Shown here in pieces: positions 15,750 to 47,712 of a stretch of 64,000 nucleotides of DNA. The stretch comes from an uncultured cyanobacterium. GTDB taxonomy: Bacteria > Cyanobacteriota > Cyanobacteriia > CAKZMO01. The position numbers and the translations under genes were made by a program. The stretch spans positions 128,001-192,000 of the forward strand of contig CAVRCJ010000006.1 in the NCBI GenBank assembly GCA_963719515.1. Direction: 5' to 3'. Below the pieces are notes generated by a model that saw only the letters and a program-made list of their open reading frames with translations, did no database searches and had not been told where the DNA came from. The stretch's first letter is position 1; every line of letters starts with the position of its first letter.

Positions 15750-17290
15750 CTAAAGAGGGTCGCAAACAGCGCCTCAGCGATGGGGGCCTCCAGCGGATTG
15801 CCGTCTACGACCGGGTCTCCCATGTCCGGTTCCTCTATCAGTTCTCCATCAGGCACAGGCTCCTCAACGACGGGGAGTTCTGCTGACGGCTCCGGTTCCT
15901 TGCCTTCTACAGGCGTTTCGTCAACTGGCTCTTCAACTATGGGGCCGTCGATAATAGGACCCTCAACTATAGGACCCTCAATCACAGGACCCTCAACTAC
16001 AGGGTCGTCAATCACAGGACCCTCAACTATAGGATCGTCGGTGACAGGAGCATCCACTACAGGCTCGTCGACCTCTATAAGCTCAAGGAAATCCAAGAAT
16101 CCTGCCGTTGCTGAGATATCCGCCGCCAGCTCAACTAGGTCCAGGTCTCCCGTCAAATCAACGTCATCGCTTGCCACATCGCTCACGGCAACGCCGTCGC
16201 TGAAGGTGACCGTGCCGGTCAAGCTTGCGAGGAAATCTGACGCGTCGCTCAGCAGCTGGGCGAAGTCAATAAAAACTGGAATGCCGGACTCTTCAGCTTC
16301 AGGCAGAGCTGGATCGACCGGTACCTCAGGAGACAGAACCGGGTCTACAGGGGCTTCAGGAACCATAGGATCCGTCGGCGCTTCAGGATCTATCATTTCG
16401 ACCAAGGCGATGTCTAAAACCCCTTCGAGCACACCCTCACTGAGGATGAATTCGCCGTCCGTTCCGGCAACGATGGGGGTGACGAGATTGCTGATGACGC
16501 TAGCGAAATCGAACGGTTCGCCGATCTGTCCAAACGGTTCAACCGCTACGGTGGCAAATCCATCATCCACAGTGAACGTCAGGGGAAGGTCTACGAGGTC
16601 TATATCGATCCCGTCGCCGACGTCATCGCTGAGAGTTACTATTCCGTTAGAGAGATCAAAGGTTGTTTCAAAACCGCCCAAAGGTATCGTAAACTCGGCA
16701 TCCTCGCCAAAGGAAAAACTTTCCTCGATGGAGCCAAATGGCGTATCGAGGTCAATGCCCAGCGCGCCGTCAAGAAGGCTGAATTCACCTTCAAACTCAC
16801 CGGCTTCGCTGCCGAAGTCGACCGCGATCACGCCTTCGTTGAGCGCAAATGTCCCCTCAATATCTGAGAGGAGAGGCAGCAAAACGGTTTCGGTCAGCTC
16901 ATTTAGGTCTAGGGTTCCCGTCAGGGGCTCTCCCTCTTCTAGAGTTAAGGCTGCGGTTGCCACCCCGCCTTCTAAACCCACAGACGCGGTAATTCCTGTG
17001 AGTTCGTCAATGAGTTCAGCAATCCCAGCGACGACGTCGACTTCCTCAGTGAAAGTACCTTCGGCACCGGTAAGGTCGGCGCTAATGACGCCGCCTGCAA
17101 AGGTAATGCTGCCAGCAAGGCTATCTGCAAACTGCGTTAGGTCAGTTTCAGCAAAGCTGTCGGGGAAGAATGCGGCTAGGTCGCTCAGCGCAGACTCGGC
17201 GGGCAAAATCGCGACAGCAGCCGTAATGGCGTCTGCGCCGGTCTCTACTGTTCTAGTAACGAGATCTGGTGTGGTTGCCGATTCAAGCAT
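15746..17290 (-). CDS. Hyperacidic repeat protein of unknown function
   Basis: 514 aa, AGGAG RBS, D/E/G/hydrophobic composition, C-terminal P-[IV]-[IV]-[DE]-[GD] pentapeptide repeats. Confidence 0.85.
   Translation of the reverse strand: MLESATTPDLVTRTVETGADAITAAVAILPAESALSDLAAFFPDSFAETDLTQFADSLAGSITFAGGVISADLTGAEGTFTEEVDVVAGIAELIDELTGITASVGLEGGVATAALTLEEGEPLTGTLDLNELTETVLLPLLSDIEGTFALNEGVIAVDFGSEAGEFEGEFSLLDGALGIDLDTPFGSIEESFSFGEDAEFTIPLGGFETTFDLSNGIVTLSDDVGDGIDIDLVDLPLTFTVDDGFATVAVEPFGQIGEPFDFASVISNLVTPIVAGTDGEFILSEGVLEGVLDIALVEMIDPEAPTDPMVPEAPVDPVLSPEVPVDPALPEAEESGIPVFIDFAQLLSDASDFLASLTGTVTFSDGVAVSDVASDDVDLTGDLDLVELAADISATAGFLDFLELIEVDEPVVDAPVTDDPIVEGPVIDDPVVEGPVIEGPIVEGPIIDGPIVEEPVDETPVEGKEPEPSAELPVVEEPVPDGELIEEPDMGDPVVDGNPLEAPIAEALFATLFS
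15926..16075 (-). repeat. 15-bp coding tandem repeats (~10 degenerate units, e.g. AGGACCCTCAACTAT)
   Basis: Seen directly; they encode PIVEG/PVIEG/PVIDD units. Confidence 0.85.
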
Positions 17291-28852: not shown

Positions 28853-29995
28853 CTAACGGCGATAGTAGACCCTAGAATCCATGCCGAAATCTCGCAGAAA
28901 CTGGTTCCATCGGGTTGCAGACTGGCGGTTGACAAATGGTCCGATGAGCAAGTGGGGGCCCAAGGGTTGGTCTCGCTGGGCGATCGCGTTGGGATTGGCC
29001 CCAAGAAGAGCAACTTGCCCCTGCAGTCGGTTGAGACTGTCAGCATCGCCCGGCACTACGATATAGTAGTCGCTGCCTATCGCATCTTGTGGGGCGGGGC
29101 TTTGGGCAACGGGAGCCGGAGCTACAGCCTCTGGCGCTAGGGCCGGGTCTGTAATCGTTGGTTCTGGAGTAAGCGGAGCGCTGAGTTCGGCGGGGGGAAG
29201 GGCCGCCACACCAGAGCCAATGCTAGAGCCTAGCTGGTCAAACTCGTCGTCGGGGGCTGTAGGCGCTGCCGCCACAGTAGCGGTAGCGCCTATGGCGGTA
29301 AATGGCTCGTCTATTGCTTCAGCCACTTCAGATTCTTCAGCGACCTCAGGCCCAGTCACCTCAGGCCCAGTCACCTCAGGCCCAGTTGCTTCACGTCCGG
29401 ACTCTTCCAAACCAACGGCAATCTCTGCGCCAATGCCTTGGTCGGCTAAAGCCTCAACCTGCTGCTGCGCAGGGGCAAGCTGGGCAAACTGCCCCGCCAA
29501 AATCACCGACTGCCCTTGGTACCGCTCAAACGCGGCGGCGGGCTCCACACGGCGAACCTGCTCCAGTAGAAAAGGACTATCGCTATTGATCAAGACGCGA
29601 TAGCGTTGGGCTGAATCTGCTGGCGCTGTAGGCACGACGTCTACAGGTTCCACTGCAGCAGGTTCTTCCACTGCAGTGGAACCTACCGCCGGTTCTGCCG
29701 CTGGGCTACCGGCCGCTGGCTCATTTGAGGGAGCTGGGGATTGAGGTTCAAGCTCAGGGATTGAGGGGGGCGGTGGTAAGCCATCAATTACGGTTTGGGC
29801 ACCTGCCGCCTGCGCTAGGATCAAGGTGAGTAGGTTGATGCCAATTACCCAGAGCGACGGCTTCCAGCGCTTTGACATCGTCGCCGCAGCGTCGCTTCTA
29901 CTGCCAGAGAGTCGGTTGTCAGGGTGGGGGCGGACAGAGGATTGATGAGATGATTCGGTGAGCTGGGGCTGGTGTGTCATCGCAACAAGAGGCAA
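28853..29995 (-). CDS. Cyanobacterial exported Pro/Ala-rich protein with two SPOR-like segments
   Basis: Hydrophobic signal-like segment; LEQVRRVEPAA and GPHLLIGPF...LRDFGMDSRVYY; internal TGPEV x3 repeat; start uncertain. Confidence 0.65.
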   Translation of the reverse strand: MPLVAMTHQPQLTESSHQSSVRPHPDNRLSGSRSDAAATMSKRWKPSLWVIGINLLTLILAQAAGAQTVIDGLPPPPSIPELEPQSPAPSNEPAAGSPAAEPAVGSTAVEEPAAVEPVDVVPTAPADSAQRYRVLINSDSPFLLEQVRRVEPAAAFERYQGQSVILAGQFAQLAPAQQQVEALADQGIGAEIAVGLEESGREATGPEVTGPEVTGPEVAEESEVAEAIDEPFTAIGATATVAAAPTAPDDEFDQLGSSIGSGVAALPPAELSAPLTPEPTITDPALAPEAVAPAPVAQSPAPQDAIGSDYYIVVPGDADSLNRLQGQVALLGANPNAIAQRDQPLGPHLLIGPFVNRQSATRWNQFLRDFGMDSRVYYRR

Positions 29996-38582: not shown

Positions 38583-39497
38583 ATGCACAGCTTTCTGCCT
38601 ATTGCCTACTTTGAGAACCAGTTCGTCCCCTTCGAAGAGGCCAATATCTCCATCGCCACCCACGCGCTGCACTACGGCACCGGCGCGTTTGGCGGCATGC
38701 GCGGCCTGCCTGACCCGCAAAACCCAGATAAAGCGCTGCTGTTTCGCCTCGACCGCCACTGCGATCGCCTCAGCACCAGCGCCCGCTTCTTGCACTACGA
38801 CCTGCCTGCCGACAAAATCCGCTCGGTGATTCTAGAGTTTGTGCAAAAGAACCAGCCTAAGACCTCGTTCTACATCCGTCCGTTCGTCTACACCTCAGAC
38901 CTGGGCATCGCTCCCAGACTGCACAACGTGCAGAAAAACTTCTTTATCTACGGCATCGAGCTAGGAGACTACCTCTCTCCCGACGGCGTCAGCTGCCGGA
39001 TTGCCTCCTGGTATCGGCAGGAAGACCGCAGCCTGCCCCTAAGAGGCAAAATTAGCGGAGCTTATATCACCTCATCGCTAGCCAAGACCGAGGCCGTTGA
39101 CTCGGGCTTCGACGAGGCGATCTTGCTCAACTCTCAGGGCAAGGTGAGTGAAGCTACGGGCATGAATATCTTCGTTGTGCGTAACGGCACGATCATTACC
39201 CCTGGGTTTGAGCAGGACATCTTGGAAGGAATCACCCGTGACAGCGTCTTGACCCTTGCCAAAAATTTGGGCATCCCCGTGCAGGAGCGTCCCATTGACA
39301 AATCCGAGCTGTTAATTGCCGACGAGGTTTTCCTCAGCGGCACTGCAGCAAAAATTACGCCCGTGAAGCGGGTTGAAAACTATAGGCTCCCTGAGGAGCG
39401 GCCCATCACCGAGCAGCTGCGGCAGACTCTCACCGCGATTACGGAGAACCGAGAGCCTGCATACCGAGACTGGATTACGTCCATCGAGCTAGCTTAA
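38583..39497 (+). CDS. ilvE: Branched-chain amino acid aminotransferase
   Basis: HALHYGT, KISGAY, ILEGITRD and SGTAA motifs. Confidence 0.95.
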   Translation: MHSFLPIAYFENQFVPFEEANISIATHALHYGTGAFGGMRGLPDPQNPDKALLFRLDRHCDRLSTSARFLHYDLPADKIRSVILEFVQKNQPKTSFYIRPFVYTSDLGIAPRLHNVQKNFFIYGIELGDYLSPDGVSCRIASWYRQEDRSLPLRGKISGAYITSSLAKTEAVDSGFDEAILLNSQGKVSEATGMNIFVVRNGTIITPGFEQDILEGITRDSVLTLAKNLGIPVQERPIDKSELLIADEVFLSGTAAKITPVKRVENYRLPEERPITEQLRQTLTAITENREPAYRDWITSIELA

Positions 39498-39507
39498 GCG
39501 CAGGGGG

Positions 39508-39760
39508 GTGACATCCTCCCGACGCTGACAGCAAGCTGTACAGCGCGGGCTTCCTCAGTGACTCCCAGCTATTGCCGAGACATATCCTGAGATAGGTTTA
39601 TACTCCGCCTGATGCCCCACGGCAGAGTTTTGAATTTTCATCTCCGCGAGGGAGGATACGCACTATGTGTCGCAGATACATTTGCAAACTGAGGAACGGG
39701 TGACTTGCAGCTTTCGCCTACGGGCCCGTCACACTCTTTGCGGGGTGTATCACCTTGCTA
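39508..39760 (-). ncRNA. Putative omegaRNA-like structured RNA inside element copy 1
   Basis: TG-G-TATGAT at 39774-39766; minus-strand stems with G-U pairs and GNRA loops; long-range TTCCTCAGT/ACTGAGGAA pairing; ends at the right end. Confidence 0.55.
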
Positions 39761-39899
39761 TCTCTATCATACCAACTGCTAGCCTCAGCGCTGAGCGCAC
39801 TATCCGCTGTGCATCATTTTGCGGGCGCACTTCGGCTAGCGCGACTCTCATCCCGACGCTCACCCTGACGGGTAGAGCGCGGGGCTTCCTGTCTAGTAG
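39508..39899 (-). mobile_element. Non-autonomous IS200/IS605-family element (392 bp), copy 1
   Basis: Subterminal bulged hairpins at both ends, right end TCAC, inserted 3' of TTTAG, no TIR or target duplication, no transposase; matches copy 2 except 39861/41239. Confidence 0.9.
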
Positions 39900-40856
39900 C
39901 TAAAGTGCAGCAGCTCGTTTCTGCACCTTCTCTATCGTCAATGGTCCAGCAATGCCGTTGACGACTAGATCGCTAGCCTCCTGAAATCGCTTTACGGCAG
40001 TTTCCGTAGCGCTGCCATAGTAGCCGGTCAGCTGCTGCTTGCTGTAATAGCCGATGTCAGCGAGCTGGGTTTGCAGGCTTAAAACTTCTTGGCCGCGATC
40101 GCCCAAGTAAAGCACATTCCCCACGGCAGCAGTTGTGGGCACGGTGACGGGGCGGACCGGGGCAGCTGCCGGCTGCGCGACGTTTAAGACTGCAGCTTGA
40201 GTCGTCGGCTGATCGACGGCTAGCTCCGCAAGGGTGACAGGTCCGGCAATGCCGTCCGCTGTTAGCCCATTTGCCTGCTGAAAGCTGATGACAGAGGCTT
40301 CGGTAAGGGTGCCGTAGTAGCCTGTAACCGGTCCGCTGTAGAATCCAGCGGTGGTCAGCGCGTTCTGCAGGTCGCTAACGGCGTTACCCTGATTGCCGCG
40401 GGCGAGAAATCCGGCGGTGGCATCAGCGGTGGGGGCTGGTGATGGCGCTGCGCCTGTGCCCTGAATAGCAGCTAGAGTGTTGGAGCCCGCCACGCCGTCT
40501 ACCGCCAATCCCCGGGATGACTGGAAATCTTGGACAGCCGCTTCGGTAAGCGAGCCATAGAAACCGGTGACGGGGCCGCTGTATGCGCCAGCGGCGGCCA
40601 AATCTTGCTGAAGCTGGGTGACGGTGACGCCAGAGTCTCCTCGCCGCAGCGCCGCGGCAGCGCTACCGGTGGCGAGAATGAGGGAGGCTCCGCAGGCAAG
40701 GGTGAGAGCATGACGAGACGCGCTGTTAATGACCTGTCTGGCGTCGTCGAATGAGGCAGAAAAATCGATGTTGTCGTCGATAGGGTTTGCTGCGGCTGAG
40801 ACAAGGGCGTCACAGTCCTGGGCAGCAAGACCGTAGAGATATCCAATTGATTCCAT
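39900..40856 (-). CDS. Peptidoglycan-binding domain protein (3 PG_binding_1 repeats)
   Basis: L.RG..G..V..LQ..L...G.Y.GPVTG.YG.LTE.AV..FQ...GL..DG.AG..T pattern repeated three times. Confidence 0.92.
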   Translation of the reverse strand: MESIGYLYGLAAQDCDALVSAAANPIDDNIDFSASFDDARQVINSASRHALTLACGASLILATGSAAAALRRGDSGVTVTQLQQDLAAAGAYSGPVTGFYGSLTEAAVQDFQSSRGLAVDGVAGSNTLAAIQGTGAAPSPAPTADATAGFLARGNQGNAVSDLQNALTTAGFYSGPVTGYYGTLTEASVISFQQANGLTADGIAGPVTLAELAVDQPTTQAAVLNVAQPAAAPVRPVTVPTTAAVGNVLYLGDRGQEVLSLQTQLADIGYYSKQQLTGYYGSATETAVKRFQEASDLVVNGIAGPLTIEKVQKRAAAL

Positions 40857-40885
40857 GGCTGACCTGACTGATAACGTCTATGTAT

Positions 40886-41138
40886 GTGACATCCTCCCGA
40901 CGCTGACAGCAAGCTGTACAGCGCGGGCTTCCTCAGTGACTCCCAGCTATTGCCGAGACATATCCTGAGATAGGTTTATACTCCGCCTGATGCCCCACGG
41001 CAGAGTTTTGAATTTTCATCTCCGCGAGGGAGGATACGCACTATGTGTCGCAGATACATTTGCAAACTGAGGAACGGGTGACTTGCAGCTTTCGCCTACG
41101 GGCCCGTCACACTCTTTGCGGGGTGTATCACCTTGCTA
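40886..41138 (-). ncRNA. Putative omegaRNA-like structured RNA inside element copy 2
   Basis: Identical to the copy 1 RNA; -10 element at 41152-41144. Confidence 0.55.
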
Positions 41139-41277
41139 TCTCTATCATACCAACTGCTAGCCTCAGCGCTGAGCGCACTATCCGCTGTGCATCATTTTGC
41201 GGGCGCACTTCGGCTAGCGCGACTCTCATCCCGACGCTTACCCTGACGGGTAGAGCGCGGGGCTTCCTGTCTAGTAG
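40886..41277 (-). mobile_element. Non-autonomous IS200/IS605-family element (392 bp), copy 2
   Basis: Direct repeat of copy 1 at offset 1378; same TTTAG target (41278-41282) and different outer flanks. Confidence 0.9.
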
Positions 41278-41308
41278 CTAAATCATAAATTAAGAATTTA
41301 TGATTTAG
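41278..41308. promoter_or_regulatory. AT-rich perfect palindrome (candidate operator)
   Basis: CTAAATCATAAATT-AAG-AATTTATGATTTAG between divergent genes. Confidence 0.5.
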
Positions 41309-46182: not shown

Positions 46183-47034
46183 ATGATTTTAGAAAAGGTT
46201 AGTCGGATGTATCGGCATTTATTCTCTCAAAGGCGAACTGAGCTTCCATGGGAAATCAATTTGCGTACTCGTCCAATTCTTCATATCCAAAGAACACCGA
46301 TCTCAATACAACAGGCTATTAATGATCTGCAAATAAAGCTAATTGATAAAGGCTTCTTAAGTCAACATACTGGCATATTCGATAATGATACAAAAGATGC
46401 TGTTATGACGTTTCAGGAGCAACACTATCTACGTATTGATGGTGTTGTAGGTCCTCTCACCTGGGCAGCACTCTGCTATCCGACTTTATCCTTGTCGTAT
46501 GAAATTTCTGAAGACGAAAAGTATTTTGTTATAAAATTACAGAGATGCTTGCTTGATGAAGGATTTAGGTTGAAGGTCAACGGTAAATTCAACAATGAGA
46601 CTGATAGAGCATTGAGACGGTTTCAGCGCCGATATGAACTTCGTTCAGATGGAATCTGTGGGCCTCTAACTTGGATTACGTTATCTGGTCAGCGGCTTAC
46701 TCCAACTCAATCTACCTGGTCTCTGGGAATCATAGATCGTAAGATAGAGCATGCTCTTGAGCAAACATTAACCGTTTTTGCTATCTGGATTGGAATCACG
46801 TGGAATTCCATTCACTATCCGCAAGATGAAATATCCCATCCCGCAGCGATAGTTGTTGCTTATAGCCTCACTGCTTTTGGCTCACTTGTTCTGGAAAGAC
46901 TCTTTCCTGGAATCATCAACACATACGAAAGAAAACCACTTTTACGCTATGGACCGTATGTATTCGTTGGTTTGTTCTGGAAACAGATTATAACTAGGAT
47001 TTTGACAATTATGTCTCTAACCCCTTCTCTGTAG
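46183..47034 (+). CDS. Peptidoglycan-binding domain protein with C-terminal TM helices
   Basis: Two PG_binding_1 repeats (DGVVGPLTW, DGICGPLTW) plus 3 hydrophobic segments. Confidence 0.85.
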   Translation: MILEKVSRMYRHLFSQRRTELPWEINLRTRPILHIQRTPISIQQAINDLQIKLIDKGFLSQHTGIFDNDTKDAVMTFQEQHYLRIDGVVGPLTWAALCYPTLSLSYEISEDEKYFVIKLQRCLLDEGFRLKVNGKFNNETDRALRRFQRRYELRSDGICGPLTWITLSGQRLTPTQSTWSLGIIDRKIEHALEQTLTVFAIWIGITWNSIHYPQDEISHPAAIVVAYSLTAFGSLVLERLFPGIINTYERKPLLRYGPYVFVGLFWKQIITRILTIMSLTPSL

Positions 47035-47712
47035 TCATTAGCTGAGCAGCCCACACTCACGAAAACTTTACCTTATTTGTCACTCATTGCAAATGATGTC
47101 TTCCTGTCTCAGGTAGGCCTAGCTTATTTGCCGGTCGCTACAACTACTCAGCCCGCAGGTAAAGTCACAACACCTTGATATAGCCCTCATCCCCAGTAAG
47201 CGATCGCACTAGTACTCAACAGCGTAAATAAGCCAAGGGGTCACGATATGAGAGGTTTACCTGTATAGTTCCACTTGAACGGCTTGGCCATGGTGCGATT
47301 GAAACAATCAACTGACTAACCTCTCTAAATCCTCTCGCTCTGATTCGCTTAGAACGATTGGCGCTGCTGCTTGTTGTGGCACTCGCCTAGCTCCACCACT
47401 ACCTACTCCTAAACAGTAGCCCTATTTTTGCCAAGCAATACTAGCCACTCAACAATCAGCTCTACGAACCAGTGCTACGGCAAGATTCAAAATTGTGAAA
47501 GCCGCAGGGCGATATCATAATATTCACAGAACCGGCTCTCGCCAAGCAGGAGCAACTTGCGATCGCAGGAAAAAAGGGGTGGTTACCTAAGATCGGTTTT
47601 GGTGGACAATGCCCCACCCCACTCATCTTAGGAAGCGGTAAGGGATGAATCGGTCAATAGGCCAAAAATGCAGCTCGGTTAATCTAAGGCCGTTTAGCCA
47701 AGAAGGGGAATT

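What the first reader, a model, noticed from the sequence alone, without database searches (positions are those of the whole stretch)
39508..41282. Protein-free IS200/IS605 mini-element that appears to carry its own promoter and guide RNA (stand-alone omegaRNA-like), in two recent copies
Seen: two 392-bp direct copies differing at one base, with no credible ORF. On the minus strand the left end is TTTAG|CTACTAGACAGG-AAGC-CCCGCGCTC-T-ACCC-GTCA-GGGT-GAGCG-T-CGGG and the right end is GAAG-CCCGCGCTG-T-ACAGC-TT-GCTGT-CAGCG-T-CGGG-AGGATG-TCAC. Known: HUH/Y1 TnpA picks cleavage sites by pairing the 4 nt 5' of each hairpin with the target (IS608: AAAG/TTAC and GAAT/TCAA). By that rule AAGC predicts TTxG and GAAG predicts TCxC, matching the observed TTAG and TCAC. 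The interior does not look like decayed coding sequence. It has an extended -10 (TGGTATGAT, 39774-39766) followed by ~250 nt of stems whose G-U pairs work only on the minus strand (CTCTGCC/GGCGGAG, GACGGG/CCCGTT, GTAGGC-GAAA-GCTGC), plus a long-range TTCCTCAGT/ACTGAGGAA stem closing next to the right-end hairpin. Inference: a non-autonomous element that kept only the RNA component. Each insertion would acquire a new guide from its flank (copy 1 CCCCCTGCGCTTAAGC..., copy 2 ATACATAGACGTTATC...) for a TnpB-type nuclease supplied in trans, with predicted TAM TTTAG.
Basis: partly seen in the sequence, partly recalled or inferred. Interest (0 to 1): 0.85.

Follow-up and report, generated by a model that had tools for sequence, protein, structure and literature searches.

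The report
Gene-less transposon carrying TnpB guide RNA
This is a real, very abundant protein-less jumping element of a cyanobacterium that keeps a promoter and a complete guide-RNA scaffold for a DNA-cutting enzyme (TnpB) made by its larger sister elements; this kind of element is already described, so it is a clean new example with two small undescribed structural extras, not a new system.

Summary
The two 392-bp copies are real, two of 53 in this cyanobacterial genome; all follow TTAG (47 TTTAG), end in TCAC and have unrelated 3' flanks. They share ends with 19 resident IS605 elements (15 with intact tnpB, 2 with intact tnpA). The last 120 nt form an ISDra2-type omegaRNA scaffold (stem 1, pseudoknot, stem 2, end hairpin) that covaries with TnpB-coding relatives. 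The extended -10 recurs in 12 of 12 gene-less elements examined, where tnpB-only elements have their tnpB promoter. Two of its stems are not supported, and expression is untested. The idea is in print (Meers 2023, Altae-Tran 2023, Fanzor ghost loci), and this scan found such elements before on other DNA (eight notes listed) and in this genome. Extras: a 130-nt 5' RNA domain that is not recognisable tnpB and is shared with another mini-family, a strongly covarying hairpin upstream of the promoter, and left-end exchange with the resident element. New member of a known kind; interest 0.3.

The parts
39508..39899 (-). Copy 1 of the 392-bp gene-less IS605 mini-element (family M1, 53 copies in the genome)
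40886..41277 (-). Copy 2; one change (G to A at 41239) in the left-end hairpin; empty site in four congeners, no target duplication
39900..39904 (-). Target TTTAG of copy 1 (TnpA cleavage site, predicted TAM); its TAG is the stop codon of the peptidoglycan-binding gene
41278..41282 (-). Target TTTAG of copy 2, at the predicted start point of the host promoter (TTGACA 41316-41311, 18 nt, TAATTT 41292-41287)
   Evidence: sequence; TTGACA kept in 4 of 4 congeners; start point inferred
39839..39899 (-). Left end: DNA guide AAGC (39887-39884) and subterminal hairpin (about 39883-39852); commonest form matches the left end of the resident arc-tnpB element over 60 nt
39778..39840 (-).
39766..39774 (-). 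Extended -10 TGGTATGAT (copy 2: 41152-41144); predicted start near 39759
   Evidence: activity inferred
39628..39759 (-). 5' RNA domain, about 130 nt; not recognisable as tnpB; changes in two relatives keep a long hairpin; related to the 5' domain of mini-family M3
39603..39627 (-). omegaRNA stem 1 (CTCTGCC/GGCGGAG); loop 39620-39610 can form the pseudoknot with the last bases of the element (GGCAUC with GAUGUC)
39554..39602 (-). A-rich linker (TATAAAC), stem 2 (CTCAG 39591-39587 with CTGAG 39558-39554) and enclosed stem 3
39508..39553 (-). Right end: DNA guide GAAG (39553-39550), hairpin (= omegaRNA stem 4), cleavage site TCAC (39511-39508)
39488..39507 (-). Predicted RNA guide of copy 1 (flank; antisense across the stop of the aminotransferase gene)
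   Evidence: sequence; role inferred from TnpB biology
40866..40885 (-). Predicted RNA guide of copy 2 (flank; 5' leader of the peptidoglycan-binding gene, ATG 29 nt from the element)
   Evidence: sequence; role inferred
39900..40856 (-). Host gene between the copies: 318-aa protein with PG_binding_1 domains; at the same place in congeners, not cargo

Best explanation
A non-autonomous IS605-family mini-transposon (homogeneous PATE) that also is a stand-alone omegaRNA gene. Shown by sequence: IS605 ends, insertion 3' of (T)TTAG without duplication, 53 recent copies, a resident Y1 TnpA and catalytically intact TnpB on elements with the same ends, and an ISDra2-type scaffold in the last 120 nt. 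Inferred: TnpA from the two intact tnpA copies moves it in trans as single-stranded DNA; the tnpB-type extended -10 promoter makes an RNA of about 250 nt that runs on into the flank; the resident TnpB (family B1) binds it, trims the 5' part and uses the first 12-20 flank bases as guide next to a TTTAG TAM; after excision the re-joined empty site is cut and repaired from the sister chromosome, so the copy is kept. The element borrows both enzymes and pays for neither. Odds by step: PATE moved by resident TnpA 0.95; transcribed 0.8; works with resident TnpB 0.65.
For: 53 copies, TTAG 53 of 53, free 3' flanks; scarless empty site in congeners. 19 long elements with the same ends; 15 with full-length TnpB holding three RuvC motifs; tnpA intact in 2 of 3. 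DNA guide and target change together across families: AAGC/TTAG, AAGT/TTAA, CAGC/TGAG. Scaffold elements match ISDra2 as described in PMC10097598; 11 of 30 pairs change on both sides in 5 gene-less and 4 tnpB-coding ends, 0 of 500 shuffles; stem 1 differs in sequence from the parent's yet keeps all pairs, and the pseudoknot pairs 6 of 6 in both. -10 hexamer in 12 of 12 gene-less elements, TG extension in 10. Published statements that PATEs carry omegaRNAs needing TnpB in trans and that standalone omegaRNAs work in trans.
Against: No expression or binding data. The -10 has no -35 and is weak alone. Stem 1 and its linker are about 6 nt longer than in the resident tnpB element, so fit to that TnpB is not certain. 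6 of 53 copies lie after GTTAG or CTTAG, among them the most diverged copy, so a strict TTTAG TAM is not needed to persist. One element (L031) breaks the guide-target rule (AAGT with TCAA). The nine rows were picked by hand and stem 3 was left out because its register shifts. The 130-nt 5' domain is not explained by this model.
Confidence: 0.65

Rival explanations
1. Plain DNA parasite: only the two ends matter for TnpA; promoter and scaffold are leftovers of a tnpB-only ancestor, and the RNA, if made, does nothing.
For: The promoter sits where tnpB-only elements have theirs; the last 85 nt are 87-88% identical to the parent; the 5' domain is no more stable than shuffles (z -0.7) and its covariation in 3 sequences is not significant (145 of 500); copy number needs only TnpA.
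Against: Stem 1, 95-120 nt from the end, was rebuilt with different bases and kept; unrelated gene-less families keep -10, a 105-152 nt spacer and a whole scaffold instead of collapsing to fused ends; the -10 changes only at free positions in two relatives.
Confidence: 0.18
2. The RNA is made and binds TnpB, but its main effect is different: a decoy that drains TnpB from the 19 parent elements, or a two-part RNA whose 5' domain has its own job (stabiliser, processing signal, switch or protein-binding module); or its partner is another TnpB family.
For: 53 minis against 19 parents; 5' domain 93% and 88% identical in two congeners whose neighbouring genes are 69-78% identical, every change keeps the proposed fold; a related domain sits on a different scaffold in family M3/L031 (1 and 16 of 1000 shuffles); its TTCCTCAGT is invariant and complementary to the stem-2 strand, as an inhibitory segment could be (cf. 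AmaTnpB mRNA); the genome holds other TnpB families.
Against: High identity may reflect recent horizontal spread; ISDra2 has a dispensable, disordered 5' region of similar length; the alternative pairing is at most 10% populated in the model; stems 2-4 match the B1 lineage.
Confidence: 0.13
3. A host-domesticated guide repertoire used for defence or gene regulation.
For: Many copies give many guides; copy 2 sits between a host promoter and its gene.
Against: Copies are young (96-100% identical), absent at these sites in congeners; no guide 16-mer occurs twice in the genome and 0 of 53 have a TTTAG+10-nt second site; TnpB is catalytically intact and mobile.
Confidence: 0.04

Closest known systems
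PATEs (palindrome-associated transposable elements), Dyall-Smith et al. 2011 (PMC3119063, passages read) and the PATE-like minimal ISGst elements of Meers et al. 2023 (PMC10055086, passages read)
   Same: No terminal inverted repeats, near-terminal palindromes shared with IS605 elements, no target duplication, no transposase, expansion at over 90% identity; Meers et al. state that PATEs often encode omegaRNAs that need TnpB in trans.
   Different: Cyanobacterial; interior is not a plain deletion of the resident parent (67-277 has no counterpart there); conserved promoter, upstream hairpin and 5' RNA domain are not described in the passages read.
Standalone omegaRNAs of OMEGA systems (Altae-Tran et al. 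2021, not held; as summarised in PMC10691335, passages read)
   Same: Mobilised omegaRNA locus without effector or transposase, in a genome with effector loci; guide taken from the flank.
   Different: Function in trans was shown there and is untested here; that the tested case was IscB is my recollection, not from a call.
ISDra2 TnpB omegaRNA (Nakagawa et al. 2023, PMC10097598, passages read)
   Same: About 116-120 nt scaffold: stem 1, pseudoknot with the 3' end, linker, CUCA/UGAG stem 2, stem 3, end hairpin; preceded by 115-130 further nt.
   Different: ISDra2's RNA overlaps tnpB and is cut from the mRNA; here there is no ORF and the 5' part is non-coding.
Fanzor ghost loci (Saito et al. 2023, PMC10432273, passages read)
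   Same: ORF-less copies outnumber full elements (134 against 42 there, 53 against 19 here), carry a conserved non-coding interior and a slightly altered scaffold that worked with the enzyme.
   Different: Eukaryotic, inverted-repeat ends, other transposase.

Membership tests
PATE (IS200/IS605 non-autonomous element) | Near-terminal palindromes related to those of IS605 elements, no terminal inverted repeats | tested here: met
   Left end 92-96% and right end 87-88% identical to resident tnpA/tnpB elements
PATE (IS200/IS605 non-autonomous element) | Inserts 3' of a short target without duplication | tested here: met
   53 of 53 after TTAG; empty site 2 in congeners reads through TTTAG into the flank
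PATE (IS200/IS605 non-autonomous element) | No transposase or nuclease ORF | tested here: met
PATE (IS200/IS605 non-autonomous element) | Cognate Y1 TnpA available in trans | tested here: met
   Y1_Tnp E=7e-41; intact in 2 of 3 elements with the same ends; mobilisation itself not assayed
IS608-type end recognition | 4-nt DNA guides predict the cleavage sites | tested here: met
   AAGC/TTAG and GAAG/TCAC here; AAGT/TTAA and CAGC/TGAG in related families; one exception, L031. The pairing rule itself is recalled.
TnpB omegaRNA (ISDra2 type) | Scaffold at the right end with stem 1, pseudoknot, stem 2, end hairpin | tested here: met
TnpB omegaRNA (ISDra2 type) | Triple helix between linker and stem 1 | tested here: inconclusive
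   A-rich linker present but about 6 nt longer than in the parent; triples not modelled
Standalone omegaRNA | Expressed as an RNA that includes flank-derived guide | not testable with these tools
   Only the promoter motif and the lack of a minus-strand terminator match were examined
Standalone omegaRNA | Loaded by and active with an effector encoded elsewhere; TAM equals the target | not testable with these tools
   Candidate effector present: 398-aa TnpB with three RuvC motifs in 15 of 19 copies
Simple deletion remnant of the resident tnpB element | Interior aligns to parent coding sequence | tested here: not met
   67-236 scores like shuffles against the parent (162 of 300); 140-312 borderline (21 of 300); 5' domain against a profile of 25 tnpB 3' coding ends 17 of 60. 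Only the last 120 nt are clearly homologous.
Curated Rfam RNA families | Match to an Rfam 15 model | tested here: not met
   No match in the element at E up to 10

The most novel reading that the evidence does not exclude
Cyanobacterial gene-less IS605 elements are an old, modular class of RNA genes, not fresh deletion products: an insulating hairpin, a promoter, an exchangeable structured 5' domain with a function of its own, and an omegaRNA core whose ends are refreshed by recombination with whichever TnpA/TnpB element is resident. At 53 copies against 19 parents they would take over the TnpB pool, a parasite of a selfish homing system whose 5' domain controls when the guide folds.
Probability: 0.15. 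Interest if true: 0.6.

Novelty: new member of a known kind. Interest (0 to 1): 0.3.

Why it matters
If the model holds, this genome is a convenient natural test of a claim that is mostly asserted for TnpB: that gene-less elements persist by lending guides to a nuclease made elsewhere. It has one candidate TnpB, one TnpA, 53 natural guides and at least two further mini-families. A scaffold freed from coding shows which features TnpB needs (longer stem 1, kept pseudoknot), which is of use for guide design. The class itself is known, so the gain is a test bed and two undescribed structural modules, not a new mechanism.

Tried and rejected
Expression: no RNA holder listed; no evidence either way, so no reads were laid. 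Rfam: nothing in the element; in 11 related loci only a flanking tRNA and a weak RAGATH-18 match (E 0.63) on another family's core. More homologues of the 5' domain: metagenome pattern gave 3 loci that read as chance matches; viral contigs 0; plasmids 0; 3 of 17 and 3 of 401 genomes, always the same three (that pattern was too strict even for family M3). A tnpB-bearing parent with the same promoter module: not found with the M2 module as query in 301 genomes, a shallow search with 3 candidates scored per genome. Decayed tnpB in the 5' domain: not detected. Composite transposon around the peptidoglycan-binding gene: rejected, the gene lies at the same place in congeners without the elements. 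Self-targeting as a sign of TnpB activity: 0 of 53, but controls are as low; no perfect empty paralogous site for any of 72 elements, uninformative. Ribozyme, riboswitch or group II domain V likeness: judged by eye from recalled motifs only, not supported by Rfam. Two alternative folds of the outer 5' stem could not be told apart with three sequences. Literature: seven searches listed no paper on this family or on a 5' domain of gene-less TnpB elements; subscription journals, Altae-Tran 2021 and all supplements were not seen, and Extended Data Fig. 2e of Meers et al. may show comparable elements.

Full report
Observation. The window holds two direct copies of a 392-bp sequence, 39508-39899 and 40886-41277, that differ at one base; identity extends by the five bases TTTAG on one side and ends at TCAC on the other. 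The only ORF of 50 codons or more inside is a 78-codon frame on the opposite strand, and no frame matches a profile of the genome's TnpB proteins. Rfam has no match in the element.

Family in the genome. BLASTN of the 5.28-Mb assembly gives 53 full-length copies, 96-100% identical. All 53 follow TTAG (47 TTTAG, 3 GTTAG, 3 CTTAG; TTTAG is 34% of NTTAG sites in the genome, p=2e-16), all end in TCAC, and the first eight flank positions show no preference. Of 53 sites, 40 are intergenic or in short frames, 7 use the TAG of the target as a stop codon (as copy 1 does) and 6 interrupt frames of 200 codons or more, against 177 of 300 random TTTAG sites: harmful insertions are purged. Four congeners lack the element at site 2; one reads through TTTAG into the same flank with no duplication, and site 1 is empty in the three where it could be aligned. 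These are independent recent insertions around an ordinary host gene, not a composite transposon.

Parents. The same ends bound 19 longer elements: 16 of about 1,480 bp with tnpB and a divergent 60-codon ORF with weak ribbon-helix-helix matches, and 3 of about 1,800 bp with tnpA and tnpB. tnpA is a Y1 transposase, intact in 2 of 3; 15 of 19 carry a 398-aa TnpB with the three motifs that I read, from recall, as RuvC I-III (D205, E289, D368). The left end is 92-96% and the last 85 nt 87-88% identical between mini-element and parents. The commonest mini left end (24 of 53) is the same over 60 nt as the commonest parent left end (14 of 19), while the two congener minis differ there: ends appear to be exchanged with the resident element (inference).

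The guide scaffold. Nakagawa et al. (PMC10097598, passages) describe the ISDra2 scaffold as 116 nt with stem 1, a pseudoknot to the 3' end, a triple helix, stem 2 (positions -84 to -81 with -35 to -32) and further stems, preceded by a disordered, dispensable 5' region. The last 120 nt here have that plan: stem 1 at 39627-39603, a loop that pairs 6 of 6 with the element's last bases (also 6 of 6 in the parent), an A-rich linker, CTCAG/CTGAG as stem 2 (pair probability 0.9), stem 3 and the right-end hairpin. On an alignment of 5 gene-less and 4 tnpB-coding ends, picked by hand, 93% of cells pair, 11 of 30 pairs change on both sides (5 of 7 in stem 1), and 0 of 500 shuffles reach this (stem 3 left out; pseudoknot and stem 2 are conserved but show no two-sided change). 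The core folds better than shuffles on the minus strand only (z -3.1 against -1.1), though the whole 281 nt do not. Stem 1 and linker are about 6 nt longer than in the parent, as they are in two other minis against their nearest coding relatives.

Promoter. One TGnTAnnnT match is weak: 253 of 2000 shuffles have one, there is no -35, and the strict scan lists no minus-strand promoter. Conservation is the evidence. The two congeners have TGCTATACT and TGGTATAAT; all 12 gene-less elements examined have TAnnnT (10 with TG) 105-152 nt before stem 1 (five have further TAnnnT matches, and I chose by position). In the tnpB-only elements of this genome a like motif lies at a like distance from the left end, six bases before the tnpB start codon. 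So the promoter is most likely the inherited tnpB promoter, now driving a non-coding RNA of about 250 nt from near 39759. The scan finds no terminator on this strand, so the RNA would run into the flank, as a guide must. Expression itself was not testable.

The 5' domain. The 130 nt between promoter and stem 1 do not come from the resident parent in any detectable way: 67-236 scores like shuffles (162 of 300), 140-312 is borderline colinear with the tnpB 3' end (21 of 300), and a profile of 25 tnpB coding ends does not pick it out (17 of 60; nor any of 10 other spacers). An old coding origin is not excluded. In two congeners it differs at 9 and 17 of 137 columns; a long hairpin drawn from these sequences keeps all pairs, with one two-sided change, six one-sided changes over 44 pairs and a G-C pair inserted on both sides, but with three sequences the control is not significant (145 of 500) and the region is no more stable than shuffles (z -0.7). 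It resembles the 5' domain of family M3 and L031 (16 and 1 of 1000 shuffles; six other spacers 334-915; comparison made after seeing the likeness), which have a different, longer core. That suggests a module that moves between families; its function is open.

Upstream hairpin. Between left end and promoter (39840-39778) seven minis share a 22-pair hairpin with 10 two-sided changes (0 of 500 shuffles) and an invariant U-G pair, which points to a single-stranded structure on this strand. The parents have a different hairpin at the same place. It lies outside the predicted RNA; a barrier to read-through or a part of the left end are the likely roles (inference).

Wider class. The genome has two more gene-less families (17 and 6 copies) and several single elements with the same plan; four further distinct ones came from a scan of species genomes (five loci, one a duplicate). 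Family M1 itself was found only in 2 of 4 congeners, at 93% and 86% identity while neighbouring host genes are 69-78% identical, which fits horizontal spread.

Mechanism. Shown: anatomy, target rule, parents, scaffold conservation. Inferred: TnpA moves the element in trans; the RNA is made, loaded on the resident TnpB (which can trim extra 5' sequence in other systems, PMC10278001, passages) and guides cleavage of the re-joined empty site, so that repair restores the copy, the retention model of Meers et al. (PMC10055086, passages). Overall 0.65. Rivals: functionless leftover 0.18; decoy, 5'-domain function or another TnpB 0.13; domesticated repertoire 0.04. The six copies at non-TTTAG sites show that a strict TAM is not needed to persist, and the T preference may come from TnpA alone.

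Known. PATEs were defined in 2011 (PMC3119063, passages). Meers et al. write that PATEs often encode omegaRNAs that need TnpB from other elements. Altae-Tran et al. 2023 say that standalone omegaRNAs were shown to work in trans (PMC10691335, passages; the 2021 source was not held). Fanzor ghost scaffolds worked with the enzyme (PMC10432273, passages). The small ORF of the parents fits Arc (10.64898/2026.09.24.754181, abstract and passages). Passages of 10.1101/2023.11.20.567912 and PMC13565253 added nothing. This scan holds nine notes with the same key words, eight listed, all judged a known kind, and one on another mini-family of this genome; none matched this sequence. Seven searches listed no paper on this family or its 5' domain; supplements were not read.

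Verdict. Real, well supported, and a member of a described kind. The 5' domain, the upstream hairpin and the end exchange are modest extras. Interest 0.3; novel case probability 0.15, interest 0.6 if true.

Noticed in passing
window 41316-41278 (minus strand): Copy 2 is inserted at the predicted start point of a host promoter (TTGACA, 18 nt, TAATTT) whose -35 is kept in four congeners; the element's outward promoter now lies upstream of the peptidoglycan-binding gene, ATG 29 nt from the right end. It may have rewired that gene. 12 of 53 copies have a same-strand ATG of a long frame within 100 nt (no background computed).
   Followed up: partly
L070 (G000:C6:121876-123363) and 15 sister copies: tnpB elements with a divergent 60-codon ribbon-helix-helix-like ORF in place of tnpA; fits the Arc repressor of a 2026 preprint.
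   Followed up: partly
tnpB-only elements of G000: Extended -10 six bases before the tnpB start codon: probably leaderless tnpB mRNAs.
   Followed up: no
L071, L074, L075, L035: Mini-family M2 (17 copies) and relatives share a conserved 5' motif (TGACACARAC...CAG and GCTGGTGAACAGTGC) with no Rfam match, on a longer core; no tnpB element with that core was seen in the genome.
   Followed up: partly
L031:384-449: The longer core of the M2/M3-type minis gives a weak RAGATH-18 match (23.8 bits, below the 44.9 cut-off).
   Followed up: no
L025 / L034: The 5' domain of this mini holds GTACCTTGACAAC, which I recall as a boxA-like antitermination motif; not kept exactly in its relative L032.
   Followed up: no
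G000:C3:637171-637283 against C3:646795: An 84%-identical paralogue of a tnpB element's insertion site is empty and has TTTGG in place of TTTAG; both copies of another duplicated site (C9:14565, C10:707005) are occupied. Compatible with an active nuclease but anecdotal.
   Followed up: partly
window 47325-47383: 59 bases ending in TTTAG match the upstream flank of the copy at G000:C3:383396 at 97%, with a different sequence after the target: possibly a rearrangement at an element end.
   Followed up: partly
G000:C6:428062-428458: One mini-element copy sits inside a tnpB gene of another family.
   Followed up: no
window 46183-47034: A second ORF with peptidoglycan-binding-like repeats by eye lies 5 kb away; not searched.
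   Followed up: no
window 15909-16073 and 29338-29397: 15-nt tandem repeats, probably coding repeats.
   Followed up: no
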